Position numbers and translations under genes: made by a program. The notes beneath the pieces are model-generated. The model did not search any database and was not told the DNA's origin. It saw only the letters and a program-made list of their open reading frames with translations. Source: a virus (Duplodnaviria > Caudoviricetes). From it: DNA of 56,248 nt. Positions 7,214 to 11,063 of this stretch are shown here, piece by piece. The stretch spans positions 1 to 56,248 of IMG/VR virus record IMGVR_UViG_3300033149_003977. One strand, written 5' to 3'. Positions within the stretch are counted from its first letter, which is position 1; every line of letters begins with the position of its first letter.

Positions 7214-8507
7214 AGAAATTATCGAGAAATTGCGGCAGCCGCAGTTCTATGGTCATTGTGCGAGTCTACAAAAATCTGTAACGGGCGAGGTCATTCTTTC
7301 GGGCCCCGCCGGAACGGGCAAGTCGCTAGCGGCGCTTTACAAGCTGTATGCCTGCGCCATGCGATATCCCGGATTTCGCGGCGCGATCATCCGTAAGACG
7401 CGGACGAGTCTCACAGAGACGGGACTGGTCACATTTGAACGTGATGTGTTAGGTTTAGATCATAAGCTGTTGGTTAATGGTCCCAGCAGAGCCTATAGGT
7501 CGCGTTATACATTCGACAACGGCAGTGAAATCGTTATTGCTGGTCTTGATCGACCGAGTCGTATTTTAAGTTCTGAATATGACATAATCTTTGTCCAGCA
7601 GGCAGAAGAGATCGCGTTGCGTGAGTGGGAAATATTGACTACGCGATTGCGCAACTATCAGATGCCGTACCAGCAACTCATTGGCGATTGCAACCCAGAG
7701 TCGCCAATGCACTGGATCAAACAAAGAGGTGAAAGCAATGCACTTGTACTGTGGGAAACAACACATCAAGACAATCCGCTTCTTTGGGATGCGAGAACGA
7801 ATGATTGGACGGAGGAGGGCCGGCGGTATCTAGCAACACTGGACAAATTGACGGGGGCTACGAAACGTCGGCTGCGGTATGGCGAGTGGGTGCATCCCGA
7901 AGGAGCAATTTACGAGACATTCGACGAAGATAGGCACGTCGTCAAATCGTTCGACGTTCCGCTTACCTGGCCACGGTTTGTGGGTATTGACCCGTTTGGC
8001 GCGTATATTGCGGCGGTTTGGTTAGCGTTTGACGTGGAAAATGGTGTGTTGAACGCATACCGCGAATATTACGAGCCGTTCGGCATAACGACGCAACAGC
8101 ATGTAAAAAACATTCTTGACATAACACGACGATACGGCGAGACCGTTTTTGCCTGGGTCGGCGGCGGGCCGTCGGAGCGTCAGGCGCGGACTGATTTCGC
8201 GGGCGCGGGCATCCCGCTCATGGAGCCGCCGATTTCGGATGTGTGGTCGGGTATTGACCGCGTGAATGAACTGCTGCGAGAAAATACGCTTGTCGTCCAC
8301 GAGGGTACCTGTCCCAACTTGACCAGTGAACTTGGATCCTACCGGCGTAAGATGGACAAAAATGGTCAACCGACGGATCAAATTGAAAACAAAGAGACAT
8401 ATCACATGCTTGACGCATTGCGTTACATAGTTGTGTATCTTACACAATCGCCTGATTTGAACCGACGGGAAGTGGTTTACAAATCTATGCAGCTCGGGAG
8501 ATATTAA
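7173..8507 (+). CDS. terL: Terminase large subunit (PBSX/Terminase_6-like)
   Basis: Walker A GPAGTGKS, GDCNPESPMHWIK, RRLRYGEW, nuclease GIDP and HMLDALRY motifs. Confidence 0.92.
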   Translation: MALKQLEIVRKQNEEIIEKLRQPQFYGHCASLQKSVTGEVILSGPAGTGKSLAALYKLYACAMRYPGFRGAIIRKTRTSLTETGLVTFERDVLGLDHKLLVNGPSRAYRSRYTFDNGSEIVIAGLDRPSRILSSEYDIIFVQQAEEIALREWEILTTRLRNYQMPYQQLIGDCNPESPMHWIKQRGESNALVLWETTHQDNPLLWDARTNDWTEEGRRYLATLDKLTGATKRRLRYGEWVHPEGAIYETFDEDRHVVKSFDVPLTWPRFVGIDPFGAYIAAVWLAFDVENGVLNAYREYYEPFGITTQQHVKNILDITRRYGETVFAWVGGGPSERQARTDFAGAGIPLMEPPISDVWSGIDRVNELLRENTLVVHEGTCPNLTSELGSYRRKMDKNGQPTDQIENKETYHMLDALRYIVVYLTQSPDLNRREVVYKSMQLGRY

Positions 8508-11063
8508 GTGCTCATCCAAGGTGATGCATTGGAGGAAATGCGCAAATTGGACGATGCTACATTTACCTCCTGTTTTTGTGATCCGCCTTACGGTCTTAGC
8601 AAAACGCCGAATATGGCGGAGGTGCTCACATATTGGTTGAATGACGTTGAGTATAACGGCGGAGGTGGGGGCTTTATGTCCAAAAAATGGGACAGTTTTG
8701 TGCCTGGGCCGTTATATTGGAAAGAGGTTTATCGTCTACTCAAACCCGGTGCAGTGTTACTTGCTTTTGCGGGCACACGGACGGCGGATTTGTTAAGCGT
8801 GGCGATTCGTCTGGCGGGATTCGAGAAATTTGACGAGATCGCCTGGCTTTATGGATGTGTAGACGAGGAGACTGAGGTGCTAACACCGCACGGGTGGGAA
8901 CGGAACCCTACAACCATTGCAACCTCTCAAATATTGTGTTATAATCTGTTAGATGATACATTTGCTTGGCACAAACCAGAGAGGATGTTTATCTATGACT
9001 ACAATGATACCGCCTATAGAATTGAATCGGATTCTACAAACCAAGTCGTCTCCCGCAACCATCGTTGCGTTGTTGAACGAGGCGGAAAAAAGATATTCAT
9101 CTGTGCCGAGGCGCTCAAATGCAAAGAGAATATACCCATTCTGGAAAATATGTGCGGTTTGTCACAAACCATTTATGACGCACAACGCAACGCAGGCACT
9201 TCGGAACAAGGTATGCAGCGTAAAATGCAAAAATGTGGCTATAGGGCAGGCCAACACTGGGGCGCGTCCTCCAGAGCAATGCAAGGGCAAAGTGCAATTG
9301 ATATGCCCGATATGTGGCAAGAGTTTCTGGCGATTCAGGTCTCACGCCAAGAGAAACAAGATAAATGTTTGCGACCGGAAATGTTTGGCGGTTTGGCGGG
9401 CGCAAAACCCCGAACATTTAGCGCATTTGCGCAAGATAGCACCTTTGGGACGTCAAGGGTGGACGGAAAAGAGTTTAGCCAGCCTTCGCAAAAACATGTC
9501 GGGCGAGAACAATCCTGCATGGAAGGGCGGCGTGACCTATTTCCGCAAACACGGCAATTATCCTCCTGTCAAATATGTGCGATGTCCGCAAGAGTTCGCG
9601 ACTATGGCACGCAAGGATGGATATGTGATGGAGCATCGGTTAATTGTAGCTCAATATATAGGTCGTCCATTACTACGCACAGAGGTTGTTCATTACCTCG
9701 ATCACGATGTGACGAACAACAACCCTCAAAACCTGGCGCTATTCGAGAACAATCAATGTCACAAATTATACGAAGCGCGAGGTTCACCACCTCCTCTTTG
9801 GCAACTGTAACTCCCATTCATTACAAAGGAATTATGTGGTGCCCGCAAGTTCCGACGGGTGCCTTTGTCGCGCGTCGTCACGGCAAGATATTTGTCACGG
9901 GAAACAGCGGCTTTCCGAAATCCACCGCGATAGGCAAACAGATCGACAAGGCGGCGGGGGCAAAACGACAAAAGATTGGGGAATATCGAGTAACAGGAAA
10001 CGCTCTCACGCCAACAACCGAAAAAGGGGGTACCTATGGTGTAGGTATTCCGAACAGTGATCCAGGATACATTCCTATCACTGCTCCCGCGACGCCTGAG
10101 GCCAAGGTTTGGGAGGGATACGGCACCGCGATGAAATCCGCTCACGAGATTATCTTATGCTTTCGCAAACCACGCACGGGGACGTACGCGCAGATGGCGT
10201 TGGAATATGGCACGGGGGCGTTGGCGATAGATGCCTGTAGGATAAAGGTAAATGGACGAACATTGCGGGAGCAACACTCTGACCATCCTGCGGATGATGT
10301 TTCGAACCATGATTTTGGAAGTGAACATATTGGTGGTCAAGCAATGCAAGGCCGTTGGCCTGCGAATCTACTCTTGAGTCATTCGGTTGGTTGCGAACAA
10401 CGAGGGGATTGTGTCGAGGGATGTCCGGTCAAAATATTAGGAGAACAGAGCGGGTGGTTACATGGTGCCGGAAACAAAAATCCCACACGAATAGGACAAG
10501 GCAAAAACATCCGATTCAATACAACTCAGGAAAATGTCGCGGCTTCACGATTCAATTTTGGTGATTCTGGCACTGCTGCTCACTTCTTTCAACAATTCTA
10601 TTACACAACCAAGGCGTATCGGGCTGAGAGAGACGCGGGGCTGGAGGGATTTACAAAACTTTCGGGCGGTGAAGCCACAGGTCGCGTTGATGGAACCCCA
10701 GGATTGAAAAACCCGAGGGCTGGGGTGGGGCGGACGGGGGAGATGAGGAATCCACATCCTACGGTCAAGCCTCTCGCGCTCTGCAAATATCTGGCTACTC
10801 TCATTCGTCCGCCCGAGGAGTATCTTGATGATGCGGCGCTCTTGGTTCCCTTTGCGGGCAGCGGTTCGGAGATGATCGGCGCGTATCTCGCTGGTTGGCG
10901 TAATGTGACAGGCATAGAGCTGGAGCGAAAATATGTGGAGATTGGTCATGCACGCATTACTTGGTGGCGGCGAGCAATGGAGCAAACCGGATTGACCGAA
11001 CCGAAGGCAATAATCAAAGCGATGAAAAAGCCGCTCCCGATGTTTGAGGGAAAGAACAGATGA
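8508..11063 (+). CDS. N6-adenine/N4-cytosine DNA methyltransferase (beta class) containing an intein
   Basis: DPPY motif IV, W.YG|SGFPKS once the insert is removed, HPTVKP, PFAGSGS SAM motif. Confidence 0.92.
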   Translation: MLIQGDALEEMRKLDDATFTSCFCDPPYGLSKTPNMAEVLTYWLNDVEYNGGGGGFMSKKWDSFVPGPLYWKEVYRLLKPGAVLLAFAGTRTADLLSVAIRLAGFEKFDEIAWLYGCVDEETEVLTPHGWERNPTTIATSQILCYNLLDDTFAWHKPERMFIYDYNDTAYRIESDSTNQVVSRNHRCVVERGGKKIFICAEALKCKENIPILENMCGLSQTIYDAQRNAGTSEQGMQRKMQKCGYRAGQHWGASSRAMQGQSAIDMPDMWQEFLAIQVSRQEKQDKCLRPEMFGGLAGAKPRTFSAFAQDSTFGTSRVDGKEFSQPSQKHVGREQSCMEGRRDLFPQTRQLSSCQICAMSARVRDYGTQGWICDGASVNCSSIYRSSITTHRGCSLPRSRCDEQQPSKPGAIREQSMSQIIRSARFTTSSLATVTPIHYKGIMWCPQVPTGAFVARRHGKIFVTGNSGFPKSTAIGKQIDKAAGAKRQKIGEYRVTGNALTPTTEKGGTYGVGIPNSDPGYIPITAPATPEAKVWEGYGTAMKSAHEIILCFRKPRTGTYAQMALEYGTGALAIDACRIKVNGRTLREQHSDHPADDVSNHDFGSEHIGGQAMQGRWPANLLLSHSVGCEQRGDCVEGCPVKILGEQSGWLHGAGNKNPTRIGQGKNIRFNTTQENVAASRFNFGDSGTAAHFFQQFYYTTKAYRAERDAGLEGFTKLSGGEATGRVDGTPGLKNPRAGVGRTGEMRNPHPTVKPLALCKYLATLIRPPEEYLDDAALLVPFAGSGSEMIGAYLAGWRNVTGIELERKYVEIGHARITWWRRAMEQTGLTEPKAIIKAMKKPLPMFEGKNR
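8856..9905 (+). mobile_element. Intein (350 aa) in the methyltransferase
   Basis: Block A CVDEETEVLT, block B SRNHR, blocks F/G YKGIMWCPQV...IFVTGN followed by Ser+1. Confidence 0.9.
9103..9810 (+). CDS. HNH homing endonuclease with Zn ribbons and NUMOD3, in the +1 frame inside the intein
   Basis: CAVC..CSVKC, CPICGKSF..CDRKC, GENNPAWKGG, GYVMEHRLIV..IGRPL..EVVHYLD..NN.PQNL; frame open from 8953; GTG 9103 is an inferred start. Confidence 0.85.
   Translation: MPRRSNAKRIYPFWKICAVCHKPFMTHNATQALRNKVCSVKCKNVAIGQANTGARPPEQCKGKVQLICPICGKSFWRFRSHAKRNKINVCDRKCLAVWRAQNPEHLAHLRKIAPLGRQGWTEKSLASLRKNMSGENNPAWKGGVTYFRKHGNYPPVKYVRCPQEFATMARKDGYVMEHRLIVAQYIGRPLLRTEVVHYLDHDVTNNNPQNLALFENNQCHKLYEARGSPPPLWQL

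What the first reader, a model, noticed from the sequence alone, without database searches (positions are those of the whole stretch)
8856..9905. Intein whose homing endonuclease is overprinted in a different reading frame
Seen: the MTase is interrupted at WLYG|SGFPKS by a 350-aa intein with good splicing blocks (C1, S-x-x-H, terminal GN/S+1). Between the Hint halves the in-frame translation has no recognisable motifs. The +1 frame instead encodes a coherent Zn-ribbon/NUMOD3/HNH endonuclease, ending at 9810 where the C-terminal Hint segment begins. Both frames are stop-free for about 230 codons. Established: intein endonucleases are normally in-frame domains. Inference: a composite element in which a separately translated nuclease gene hides in the intein's tolerant loop, and its alternative-frame translation is spliced away.
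Basis: partly seen in the sequence, partly recalled or inferred. Interest (0 to 1): 0.85.

Follow-up and report, generated by a model that had tools for sequence, protein, structure and literature searches.

The report
Intein carrying an out-of-frame HNH gene
A phage DNA methyltransferase gene is interrupted by a self-splicing protein element (intein) whose middle also encodes, in a shifted reading frame, a separate HNH homing nuclease; the layout is real and widespread, but the kind was described in 2025-2026.

Summary
The MTase ORF (8508-11063) carries a 350-codon intein (8856-9905). A 285-codon ORF in the +1 frame (8953-9810) encodes a two-Zn-ribbon HNH endonuclease. It is not an assembly artefact. 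The same layout, with the HNH at +1 and the host frame open across it, occurs in 79 of 82 loci examined. It also occurs in all 72 inteins delimited in a second search and in 18 of 20 genome contigs.

Synonymous-codon shuffles predict about 12 host-frame stops per locus; none is seen. Codon-position diversity shows selection in the MTase frame in the exteins and Hint halves, selection in the HNH frame between them, and double constraint at 8995-9129.

AlphaFold gives a confident Hint fold flanking about 200 disordered residues. The HNH-frame product folds confidently.

The kind is already in print: out-of-frame nucleases in inteins, and the 'ShiLan domain' HNH in a homologous MTase. The papers I read do not describe an out-of-frame HNH inside an MTase intein, nor the same HNH lineage sitting directly in an MTase loop or free-standing. 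The window's own HNH has a unique His-to-Tyr change and may be inactive.

The parts
8508..11063 (+). DNA N6/N4 methyltransferase precursor ORF (851 aa, frame 0). Motifs: DPPY at 8580-8591, FAGSGS at 10851-10868.
   Evidence: ORF. (Pfam N6_N4_Mtase E 2.7e-10). (PHROG 67 DNA methyltransferase E 4e-30). (motif coordinates).
8856..9905 (+). Intein, 350 codons, in frame with the MTase. It is inserted between WLYG and SGFPKS.
   Evidence: junctions; C1, H69, C329, T348, G349 and N350 invariant in 43 sequences. (profile hit to intein 6zgq, E 9.8e-7). (Hint fold).
8856..9170 (+). N-terminal Hint half (about residues 1-105), including block B S-R-N-H at 9051-9065.
   Evidence: 10-residue block means of pLDDT are 91-98 for residues 1-100; the top Foldseek hits are inteins; coordinates.
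9171..9785 (+). Host-frame read-through linker (about residues 106-310 of the intein). No recognisable fold. Kept free of stops.
   Evidence: pLDDT <50 for residues 126-154 and 167-306; 0 stops against 14.4 expected; no frame-0 codon periodicity in this stretch.
9786..9905 (+). C-terminal Hint half (about residues 311-350). Block F MWCPQVPTGAFVA at 9834-9872; block G FVTGN at 9891-9905.
   Evidence: pLDDT 95-98 with strands 311-349; frame-0 periodicity 0.24/0.13/0.66; coordinates.
8953..9810 (+). Maximal +1-frame ORF (285 codons plus TAA) encoding the Zn-ribbon HNH endonuclease.
   Evidence: 43.8% identity to a same-layout ORF in LR756508.1; 112 relatives in viral contigs.
8979..8997 (+). Probable ribosome-binding site GAGAGGA (8979-8985) and start codon ATG (8995-8997) of the HNH gene, lying inside the N-Hint coding sequence.
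   Evidence: duplex energy -6.5 kcal/mol. An ATG 52 codons before the first CxxC, with a GGAG/GAGG-type site, recurs in many intein-borne relatives; double constraint begins near 8995; coordinates.
8995..9129 (+). Doubly coding stretch. Frame 0 encodes N-Hint blocks; frame +1 encodes the helical N-terminal module of the HNH protein.
   Evidence: diversity 0.34/0.24/0.41 at the three positions, against 0.54-0.68 at third positions of singly coding parts; residues 1-40 of the HNH-frame product have pLDDT 91-98.
9151..9384 (+). Two Cys4 zinc ribbons of the HNH protein: CAVC..CSVKC at 9151-9228 and CPIC..CDRKC at 9304-9384.
   Evidence: coordinates. (C126 and C130 conserved). (strand pairs 49-62 and 99-114).
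9511..9774 (+). Conserved nuclease core: NPAWKGG (9511-9531), KDGYVMEHR (9613-9639), and the HNH motif VVHY..NL..HKLYE (9685-9774).
   Evidence: 28 invariant columns. (HNH_3); diversity 0.17-0.23 at HNH codon positions 1 and 2 over 9501-9650.
9694..9696 (+). TAC (Tyr) where 69 of 70 distinct relatives have the second His of an HH doublet at the end of the first strand of the HNH motif.
   Evidence: doublet census: HH 69, HY 1, the window alone. (codon). (strand 231-234).

Best explanation
The element is a composite selfish element inside a phage DNA methyltransferase gene.

Host frame. Frame 0 encodes a class-1-type intein with C1, block-B His, terminal Asn and Ser+1. Its two Hint halves are joined by about 200 codons of unconstrained, disordered peptide. 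Protein splicing removes the whole 350-residue insert and restores WLYG-SGFPKS.

Nuclease frame. The same DNA, read one base downstream, is a separate gene for a homing-type HNH endonuclease with two zinc ribbons. It is most likely translated from its own Shine-Dalgarno site and ATG at 8995, inside the N-Hint coding sequence. About 45 codons are therefore truly doubly coding.

Why the overlap is cheap. A host-frame stop arises only where an HNH codon ends in T and the next begins AA, AG or GA. T-to-C is always synonymous there, so the nuclease pays only a codon-choice cost.

Mobility. The nuclease presumably cuts empty MTase alleles near the conserved WxYG/SGFPKS coding sequence. Repair then copies intein and nuclease together.

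Shown: the architecture, its conservation, frame-specific selection, stop avoidance, predicted folds, and patchy distribution. Inferred: internal initiation, splicing, cleavage and homing.
For: Layout is conserved.
- 61 intein-borne loci plus 18 intein-less loci have the HNH at +1 with the host frame open across it, of 82 examined.
- All 72 inteins delimited among the 79 loci of an intein-profile search have the HNH at +1.
- 18 of 20 genome contigs show the same read-through.

Stops are avoided.
- Among 70 distinct read-through loci, shuffles expect a mean of 12.0 host-frame stops.
- 65 of the 70 gave no stop-free shuffle in 2000; the largest fraction was 0.019.
- T at HNH third positions is 0 of 5043 before AA/AG/GA, against 3345 of 12857 elsewhere.
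- Gln is enriched in the host frame (8.0% against 5.5%), as expected from TAA/TAG replaced by CAA/CAG.

Selection is frame-specific (46 loci).
- Exteins and Hint halves vary most at frame-0 position 3 (0.54-0.68).
- 9130-9807 varies most at frame-0 position 1, which is HNH position 3 (0.54-0.64).
- 8995-9129 is low at all three positions.

Folds.
- Intein model: pLDDT >90 for residues 1-100 and 311-350, and <50 for 126-154 and 167-306. Top PDB fold hits are inteins, led by 6zgq at E 4.6e-6.
- Intein profile hits 6zgq at E 9.8e-7.
- HNH product: mean pLDDT 91.1, with 51 BFVD hits at E<=0.001, led by phage HNH endonucleases.

Start signals. An SD-like site plus ATG lies at a conserved position.

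Patchy distribution. Of the 80 closest extein relatives, 68 have an empty site, 1 has intein plus HNH, 1 has the intein-less form, and 10 were not parsed.

Same site, different nuclease. The ShiLan gp65 intein sits at the identical site and has a similar C-terminal Hint. PMC9957025 lists 'LAGLIDADG endonuclease' among its keywords.
Against: - No expression, splicing or cleavage data exist. No sequencing run could be listed.
- Pfam finds no intein family in the window's 350 aa.
- The penultimate intein residue is Gly, not His. PMC5050341 (passages) reports that this His is poorly conserved in mycobacteriophage inteins and is replaced in some by Gly, Lys or Ser.
- The window's HNH alone has Tyr at the second His of the HH doublet, so this copy may not cut.
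- The whole-protein HNH model found no PDB fold match at E<=0.001. The HNH profile found no PDB sequence match at E<=0.01.
- Start codons are not uniform across relatives, so the initiation site is not settled.
- The 70 loci in the shuffle test were chosen because they read through. The test therefore gives a per-locus probability, not an unbiased frequency.
Confidence: 0.78

Rival explanations
1. The architecture is as described, but the window's own HNH is a catalytically dead, decaying copy. The intein persists by vertical descent and splicing alone, late in the homing cycle.
For: The window is the only one of 70 distinct relatives with HY instead of HH at the end of the first strand of the HNH motif. 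PMC3592412 (passages) states that the first conserved His of the HNH motif is the general base. Decayed relatives exist: L147 has a 199-aa intein with only HNH residues 6-128, L045 has a truncated HNH ORF, and L166 has a broken C-terminal Hint.
Against: The ORF is intact and retains all 28 invariant columns of the family, including H233, N246, N253 and H256. Which His of the doublet is the general base was not established here; my assignment is by recalled analogy to colicin E9 and Cas9. The change could also be an assembly error or a minor variant.
Confidence: 0.35
2. The HNH is made as a fusion to the N-extein and N-Hint by a programmed +1 ribosomal frameshift, not from its own start codon.
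For: An A AAA AAG run lies in frame 0 at 9086-9092. Start codons are not uniform among relatives.
Against: Slippage on that heptamer would be -1, which leads to the wrong frame. The run is absent from relatives, for example the upstream strings of L004, L014 and L033. Intein-less relatives have an SD-like site and ATG 9-13 codons before the zinc ribbon. Double constraint starts near 8995, upstream of any such site.
Confidence: 0.03
3. Assembly artefact: two compensating indels put a normal in-frame HNH intein out of frame.
For: None beyond prior plausibility for a single metagenomic contig.
Against: The same +1 relation holds in 79 of 82 loci, in 72 of 72 delimited inteins, and in 18 of 20 genome contigs, all from independent assemblies at 37-58% protein identity. 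Specific avoidance of NNT before AA/AG/GA (0 of 5043) cannot come from sequencing errors.
Confidence: 0.01
4. The insert is a group I intron carrying an HNH ORF and is removed from the mRNA.
For: Phage group I introns commonly carry HNH genes. The top BFVD hit is annotated as intron-encoded.
Against: No Rfam family matched 8400-10300 at E<=1. The host frame is kept open under selection, which an intron does not need. The flanks of the ORF encode a confident Hint fold with frame-0 codon periodicity, leaving no room for a ribozyme core.
Confidence: 0.01
5. The HNH is a domesticated phage enzyme, for example a terminase-associated packaging nuclease or a partner of the MTase, not a homing endonuclease.
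For: The MTase gene directly follows the large terminase gene, which ends at 8507. The PMC3592412 abstract notes that HNH genes often sit next to terminase genes.
Against: No other locus among L001-L083 has a relative of the window's terminase within its flanks. The HNH travels with the MTase, not with the terminase. Most related MTases lack it (68 of 80). The record has direct terminal repeats.
Confidence: 0.05

Closest known systems
Cyanobacterial dnaX intein with a homing endonuclease in an overlapping +2 ORF (Phillips, DeSimone, Gogarten, bioRxiv 10.64898/2026.09.14.751524; abstract, Results and one Discussion section read. The text cites Gorbalenya 1998 for the first proposal.)
   Same: The nuclease ORF lies between the splicing halves on the same strand but in another frame. 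The in-frame translation is predicted disordered. Shine-Dalgarno motifs lie upstream of the ORF. Selection is frame-dependent. The distribution is sporadic.
   Different: That nuclease is LAGLIDADG in a +2 ORF of a cellular dnaX gene. Here it is a two-Zn-ribbon HNH at +1 in a phage MTase, its 5' part truly overlaps conserved N-Hint blocks, and the same nuclease lineage also lives outside inteins.
Non-canonical actinobacteriophage inteins (Gosselin, Arsenault, Gogarten, bioRxiv 10.1101/2025.01.02.630785; abstract, two sections and passages read)
   Same: [quoted passage not shown] The authors propose that a free-standing nuclease gene invaded the intein.
   Different: Their HNH inteins are in frame. 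Their out-of-frame cases sit in DNA polymerase, minor capsid, terminase and thymidylate synthase genes, not in the MTase. I could not see the supplementary tables.
ShiLan domain (Arsenault, Gosselin, Gogarten, Genes 2025, PMC11855218; Results, Discussion and legends read)
   Same: An out-of-frame HNH with zinc fingers lies inside a homologous phage N6/N4 MTase ORF that reads through without stops. The window's HNH matches the ShiLan one (tblastn 26% identity, E 6e-6).
   Different: The ShiLan domain lies in frame 3, at another site after GWGTALKPSYEP. It has no intein around it and so stays in the protein. No ribosome-binding site was found there and leaderless initiation was proposed. It is known only from mycobacteriophages.
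Intein of mycobacteriophage DNA methylases such as ShiLan gp65 (Kelley et al. mBio 2016, PMC5050341, passages; Gosselin et al. Genes 2023, PMC9957025, abstract and outline)
   Same: Identical insertion site, WLYG|C...TGN|SGFPKS, and a similar C-terminal Hint, VWCVKVPTGAFVARRNGKVFITGN. The terminal pair is GN.
   Different: Its middle is an in-frame domain with no HNH-frame ORF in the intein. The LAGLIDADG name comes from the papers; Pfam found only the MTase domain in gp65.
Fractured genes with split inteins and a free-standing nuclease gene between the halves (Dassa et al. NAR 2009, PMC2677866; only the search listing and abstract start seen)
   Same: A separately translated nuclease gene sits between the two intein halves. 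The best structural match of this intein is a split intein, AceL NrdHF 6zgq.
   Different: Here the intein frame stays continuous across the nuclease gene, so splicing would occur in cis. Two relatives (L052, L073) do have a split MTase around the HNH, but without Hint halves.

Membership tests
Intein (Hint splicing domain, class 1) | Nucleophile (Cys/Ser/Thr) at position 1, and Ser/Thr/Cys at +1 after a terminal Asn | tested here: met
   C1, N350 and S+1 are present. C1 and N350 are invariant in 43 sequences, and every intein-borne relative ends in TGN|SGFPK.
Intein (Hint splicing domain, class 1) | Block B T/S-x-x-H | tested here: met
   S66-R-N-H69. H69 is invariant and S66 is at least 90% conserved.
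Intein (Hint splicing domain, class 1) | Penultimate His in block G | tested here: not met
   Gly349 is invariant. PMC5050341 (passages) reports that this His is poorly conserved in mycobacteriophage inteins and is replaced in some by Gly, Lys or Ser, so this does not exclude splicing.
Intein (Hint splicing domain, class 1) | Hint fold | tested here: met
   AlphaFold pLDDT >90 for residues 1-100 and 311-350. Foldseek top hits are inteins, Hedgehog and BIL domains, led by 6zgq at E 4.6e-6. Profile hit to 6zgq at E 9.8e-7. Against: Pfam Intein_splicing was not found in the window and is only weak in L060 (E 0.0093).
Intein (Hint splicing domain, class 1) | Protein splicing activity | not testable with these tools
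   Needs expression of the precursor.
HNH (beta-beta-alpha-metal) endonuclease, Pfam HNH_3 | Match to the family model at its curated cut-off | tested here: met
   24.8 bits against a cut-off of 24.8 when started at ATG 8995, and 24.7 bits for the full ORF. Relatives score above the cut-off: L057 34.4 bits, L060 29.2 bits, ShiLan 32.1 bits. PHROG HNH families match at E 6.7e-15.
HNH (beta-beta-alpha-metal) endonuclease, Pfam HNH_3 | Catalytic His...Asn...His residues | tested here: inconclusive
   H233, N246, N253 and H256 are invariant and present in the window. The adjacent H234 is Tyr in the window alone. Which His is the general base was not resolved.
HNH (beta-beta-alpha-metal) endonuclease, Pfam HNH_3 | Fold match to a solved HNH structure | tested here: not met
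   The whole multi-domain model gave no PDB hit at E<=0.001. The profile gave no PDB sequence hit at E<=0.01. Predicted viral HNH structures do match.
Homing endonuclease gene | Patchy presence among otherwise homologous host genes, with a conserved empty site | tested here: met
   Of 80 extein relatives, 68 have an uninterrupted ..YG SGFPKS.. and no HNH, 2 carry the HNH, and 10 were not parsed.
Homing endonuclease gene | Cleavage of the empty allele and copying into it | not testable with these tools
   Needs purified enzyme and mixed-infection crosses.
Intein with a nuclease in another reading frame (2025-2026 preprints) | Nuclease ORF between the splicing halves, out of frame, with the host frame open and structureless, and purifying selection in the nuclease frame | tested here: met
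ShiLan-domain-type insertion | Out-of-frame HNH directly in the MTase ORF with no splicing domain around it | tested here: not met
   The window's HNH lies inside an intein. Eighteen relatives in viral contigs and six in genome contigs do meet it, at a site about 12-15 codons after SGFPKS and at +1 rather than frame 3. Pfam finds only the MTase domain in L057.
Group I intron with an HNH ORF | Ribozyme core; no need for an open host frame | tested here: not met
   No Rfam match at E<=1. The host frame is kept open.

The most novel reading that the evidence does not exclude
This HNH lineage may be a portable, 'read-through-proof' nuclease cassette. Its -1 frame would be kept stop-free by codon choice, so that it can live inside coding DNA in the one permissive phase.

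The same lineage is found in four states:
- inside an intein (61 loci);
- directly in an MTase loop about 12-15 codons downstream, where the junk peptide stays in the enzyme (18 loci);
- between split MTase halves (L052, L073);
- free-standing next to an intact MTase (L175).

One intein-borne copy (L060) is 73% identical over its full length to an intein-less copy (L057).

The family would then be a living series for how free-standing nuclease genes colonise mini-inteins and create mobile inteins. It would also show read-through insertion as a third way, besides introns and inteins, for a homing gene to spare its host gene.
Probability: 0.45. Interest if true: 0.65.

Novelty: new member of a known kind. 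Interest (0 to 1): 0.5.

Why it matters
How inteins acquired their homing nucleases is an old question. The 'splicing first, nuclease invades later' model needs intermediates.

This family supplies them in quantity. It contains a free-standing-type HNH gene with its own start signals. That gene sits out of frame inside an otherwise ordinary intein. It sits at the very site where mycobacteriophage relatives carry an in-frame-nuclease intein. The same nuclease lineage also sits bare in the host gene or beside it.

The family also gives a clean, quantifiable case of overprinting. One frame is under protein-level selection, while the other is selected only to avoid stops. A further 45-codon stretch is constrained in both frames.

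Practically, gene callers and intein catalogues that look only for in-frame nuclease domains will annotate these as mini-inteins or 'hypothetical insertions' and miss the nuclease.

The kind itself has been described in 2025-2026 papers, so the value lies in breadth and in linking two published phenomena, not in a first discovery.

Tried and rejected
- Sequencing error. Rejected on conservation.
- Group I intron. Rfam gave no match.
- Frameshift fusion at A AAA AAG (9086-9092). It leads to the wrong frame and is not conserved.
- Packaging-nuclease role. Terminase adjacency is not conserved.
- Repeated movement of the HNH between intein and bare-loop contexts. The quick tree needs at least 4 changes, but the AU test does not reject a single intein-less clade (p 0.69). 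I therefore claim only the L060/L057 pair.
- Selection for a hydrophilic host-frame peptide beyond stop avoidance. The shift is only slight: mean Kyte-Doolittle score -0.89 against -0.83, with 13 of 70 loci at z<-2. I do not claim it.
- PDB matches for the HNH. The sequence profile found nothing at E<=0.01 and only weak zinc-finger hits at E<=10. Foldseek on the whole model found nothing at E<=0.001.
- Close relatives of the window's own C-extein in viral contigs. None was found.
- Sequencing runs holding 8700-10100. None was listed and no RNA holder was listed.
- Supplementary files of the papers were not seen. They may list out-of-frame HNH inteins that the main texts do not mention.
- Bias in the intein-profile search. 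It kept the best 80 of 190 relatives. Similarity in the HNH-bearing middle raises the score, so HNH-less or in-frame-nuclease members of this intein family are probably under-sampled.


Full report
WHAT IS THERE. The window is a complete 56,248-bp virus record with direct terminal repeats. Directly after the large terminase gene lies an 851-codon ORF, 8508-11063. Its ends match DNA N6/N4 methyltransferases: Pfam PF01555 at E 2.7e-10 and PHROG 67 at E 4e-30. Between WLYG and SGFPKS it carries 350 extra codons (8856-9905). These begin CVDEETEVL, contain S-R-N-H, and end FVTGN, followed by Ser. A second ORF, 8953-9810, lies one base downstream in phase. It encodes two Cys4 zinc ribbons and an HNH core: Pfam HNH_3 at E 1.7e-5, 24.8 bits (equal to the curated cut-off) from ATG 8995, and PHROG HNH families down to E 6.7e-15. 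The in-frame 350 residues match no Pfam or PHROG family.

NOT AN ARTEFACT AND NOT CHANCE. A tblastn search of phage records found a 484-kb uncultured phage (LR756508.1). It has the same MTase, the same insertion site, and a 294-codon +1-frame ORF 43.8% identical to the window's.

A scan of IMG/VR viral contigs with the HNH-frame protein found 112 relatives, of which 80 were kept. I examined 82 loci: the window, LR756508.1 and those 80.
- 79 have the HNH one base downstream of a long ORF that stays open across the whole HNH ORF.
- L047 ends at a contig edge.
- L052 and L073 have the MTase split around the HNH.

A second scan, with a profile of the intein, found 190 relatives. All 79 loci kept have an HNH match. 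In all 72 whose intein my pattern could delimit, the HNH is at +1. That scan favours HNH-bearing members, because the middle of the insert adds to the score. In genome contigs, 18 of 20 loci show the same read-through.

For 70 distinct read-through loci I shuffled synonymous codons within each HNH ORF, 2000 times each.
- The host frame then acquires a mean of 12.0 stops (14.4 for the window).
- 65 of the 70 loci never gave a stop-free shuffle. The highest fraction was 0.019.
- The other alternate frame carries 5-37 stops.
- No HNH codon ends in T before a codon starting AA, AG or GA (0 of 5043), whereas 26% do elsewhere (3345 of 12857).

Those 70 loci were chosen because they read through. The test therefore gives the chance of read-through per locus, not its frequency; the frequency is the 79 of 82 above.

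WHICH FRAME IS UNDER SELECTION. I threaded codons onto protein alignments of 46 distinct intein-borne loci and measured nucleotide diversity at each frame-0 codon position.
- Exteins and both Hint halves show the usual pattern for frame 0: position 3 is the most variable, at 0.54-0.68. The C-terminal Hint half reads 0.24/0.13/0.66.
- From 9130 to 9807 the pattern moves by one base. Frame-0 position 1, which is HNH position 3, is the most variable (0.54-0.64). HNH positions 1 and 2 are constrained, down to 0.23 and 0.17 at 9501-9650.
- From 8995 to 9129 all three positions are low (0.34/0.24/0.41). Both frames are constrained there.
- 8953-8994 is loose in both frames.

STRUCTURE. With a 43-sequence alignment, AlphaFold2 models residues 1-100 and 311-350 of the in-frame insert at pLDDT above 90. 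Residues 126-154 and 167-306 fall below 50. Foldseek against the PDB returns inteins and other Hint domains: 6zgq (AceL NrdHF split intein) at E 4.6e-6, a DnaX mini-intein, a PolB1 split intein, Hedgehog and BIL domains. The sequence profile hits 6zgq at E 9.8e-7.

The +1-frame product from ATG 8995 (271 aa, 69-sequence alignment) is modelled at mean pLDDT 91.1. This includes residues 1-40, which are encoded inside the N-Hint DNA. The model matches predicted phage HNH endonucleases in BFVD, with 51 hits at E<=0.001. It found no solved structure at E<=0.001, and its profile found no PDB sequence at E<=0.01.

HOW THE NUCLEASE IS PROBABLY MADE. In the window, GAGAGGA (8979-8985) lies nine bases before ATG 8995. 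An ATG at the same position, 52 codons before the first CxxC, with a GGAG/GAGG-type site, recurs in many intein-borne relatives, for example L004, L008, L014, L016, L022 and L038. Others have a TTG or GTG 16-20 codons before the zinc ribbon. The intein-less relatives have an ATG 9-13 codons before it, preceded by GGAG, GAGG or AAGAGG. The start site is not uniform across the family, and it is inferred.

WHY +1. With the nuclease one base downstream, every potential host-frame stop spans the last base of one HNH codon and the first two of the next. It can always be removed by a synonymous T-to-C change. The excess of Gln in the host-frame peptide (8.0% against 5.5% in shuffles) is the footprint of TAA/TAG replaced by CAA/CAG. 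Beyond stop avoidance I see little selection on that peptide: mean hydropathy is -0.89 against -0.83.

RELATIVES IN OTHER SETTINGS. In 18 viral loci and 6 genome contigs there is no intein. The MTase reads ..YG SGFPKS.., and about 12-15 codons later it runs into 150-250 codons of structureless read-through that hide a shorter +1-frame HNH. It then resumes at ..GYGTALKP... Pfam sees only the MTase domain in one such protein.
- One intein-borne HNH (L060) is 73% identical over 147 residues to an intein-less one (L057).
- An HNH tree does not establish repeated switches: the AU test gives p 0.69 for a single intein-less clade.
- L073 has a free-standing HNH between two MTase half-genes. L052 has it antisense between them.
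- A Curtobacterium plasmid (L175) has it just after an intact MTase.
- Mycobacteriophages ShiLan and Mantra carry a distant relative (26-27% identity) in frame 3 at yet another site. ShiLan gp65 also has an intein at exactly the window's site, with a closely similar C-terminal Hint and an in-frame middle.

IS IT MOBILE? A scan with a profile of the C-extein kept the 80 best MTase relatives of the window.
- 68 have an uninterrupted site and no HNH.
- 1 has the intein plus HNH.
- 1 has the intein-less form.
- 10 could not be parsed.

The empty site, W-x-Y-G S-G-F-P-K-S, is highly conserved. That patchiness is what homing elements show, but cleavage and homing were not tested. Decayed copies exist: L147, L045, L166 and L169.

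THE WINDOW'S OWN COPY. It alone among 70 distinct relatives has Tyr (TAC, 9694-9696) in place of the second His of the HH doublet that ends the first strand of the HNH motif. PMC3592412 (passages) says that the first conserved His of the motif is the general base. By recalled analogy with colicin E9 and Cas9, I think the second residue of the doublet holds that role. This was not established here. The copy may therefore be inactive, or the base may be an assembly error.

WHAT IS KNOWN. Three literature searches led to the following.
- PMC11855218: the ShiLan domain, an out-of-frame HNH in a read-through MTase insertion (Results and Discussion read).
- bioRxiv 10.64898/2026.09.14.751524: the cyanobacterial dnaX intein with a LAGLIDADG nuclease in a +2 ORF, with Shine-Dalgarno motifs and frame-dependent selection (abstract, Results and one Discussion section read).
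- PMC9957025 (abstract and outline) and PMC12613952 (listing only).

None of the text I read describes an out-of-frame HNH inside an MTase intein, the +1 rule, or the same lineage in intein, bare-loop and free-standing settings. I therefore file the finding as a new member of a known kind.

VERDICT. Interest is moderate, because the concept is published. The family is large and links two published phenomena, which makes it useful for testing how inteins acquire nucleases.

Noticed in passing
window 9694-9696: TAC (Tyr) replaces the second His of the HH doublet of the HNH motif. The window is the only one of 70 distinct relatives with this change, so the nuclease may be inactive here, or the base may be an assembly error.
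   Followed up: partly
window 9086-9092: A AAA AAG lies in the MTase frame, in the phase of a classic -1 slippery heptamer. A -1 slip would not reach the HNH frame, and the run is absent from relatives.
   Followed up: partly
L057:2628-4250, L071:2586-4247, L074:1818-4322 and 15 other viral loci; L177-L182: Relatives with no intein. The +1-frame HNH sits directly in the MTase ORF about 12-15 codons after SGFPKS, so 150-250 residues of read-through peptide would stay in the enzyme.
   Followed up: partly
L060:2824-3330 versus L057:2941-3432: An intein-borne HNH and an intein-less HNH are 73% identical over their full length. This suggests the nuclease gene moved between the two settings.
   Followed up: partly
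L052:1871-4036 and L073:2113-3661: The MTase is split into two ORFs around the HNH gene. The HNH is antisense in L052 and on the same strand, free-standing, in L073. No Hint halves are present.
   Followed up: partly
L175:1167-3253 (Curtobacterium pusillum plasmid pCPAA3): A related HNH lies immediately downstream of an uninterrupted MTase of the same family.
   Followed up: no
L254:1754-2546: A 264-codon read-through insertion lies at the same MTase loop. It hides a different HNH (Pfam HNH_2 at E 3.3e-5; PF01844) in the +2 frame, so the habit is not limited to one nuclease lineage.
   Followed up: partly
L147:1501-2097; L045:3253-3846; L166:2020-3522; L169:1-1421: Decayed or broken copies. 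L147 is a 199-aa intein keeping only the first part of the HNH. L045 has an HNH ORF truncated at its 5' end. L166 has lost its C-terminal Hint. L169 has a frame break before the C-terminal Hint.
   Followed up: no
window 8856-9905 (residues C71, C329, T348 of the intein): The invariant block-F Cys and block-G Thr recall the class 3 Trp-Cys-Thr triplet, and the best structural match is a class 3 split intein. However, the block-B position holds Cys rather than Trp, and C1 is present. The splicing class was not resolved.
   Followed up: no
L001:699-3581 (ShiLan gp65): One gene carries both an intein at the window's site and, further downstream between near-duplicate YEPVCVAVKP / FEPIVVARKP motifs, the frame-3 HNH insertion. 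Both are already published.
   Followed up: partly
L048:2868-4148: An unusually long intein (427 aa) with a 353-codon +1-frame HNH ORF. The extra part was not examined.
   Followed up: no
L256:441-915 and L263:2117-2552: In-frame insertions of about 145-158 codons at the same MTase loop. No alternate-frame ORF of 70 codons or more spans the insert (L256 has two short partial ones), there is no HNH match, and the sequence looks less like filler. Their nature is unknown.
   Followed up: no
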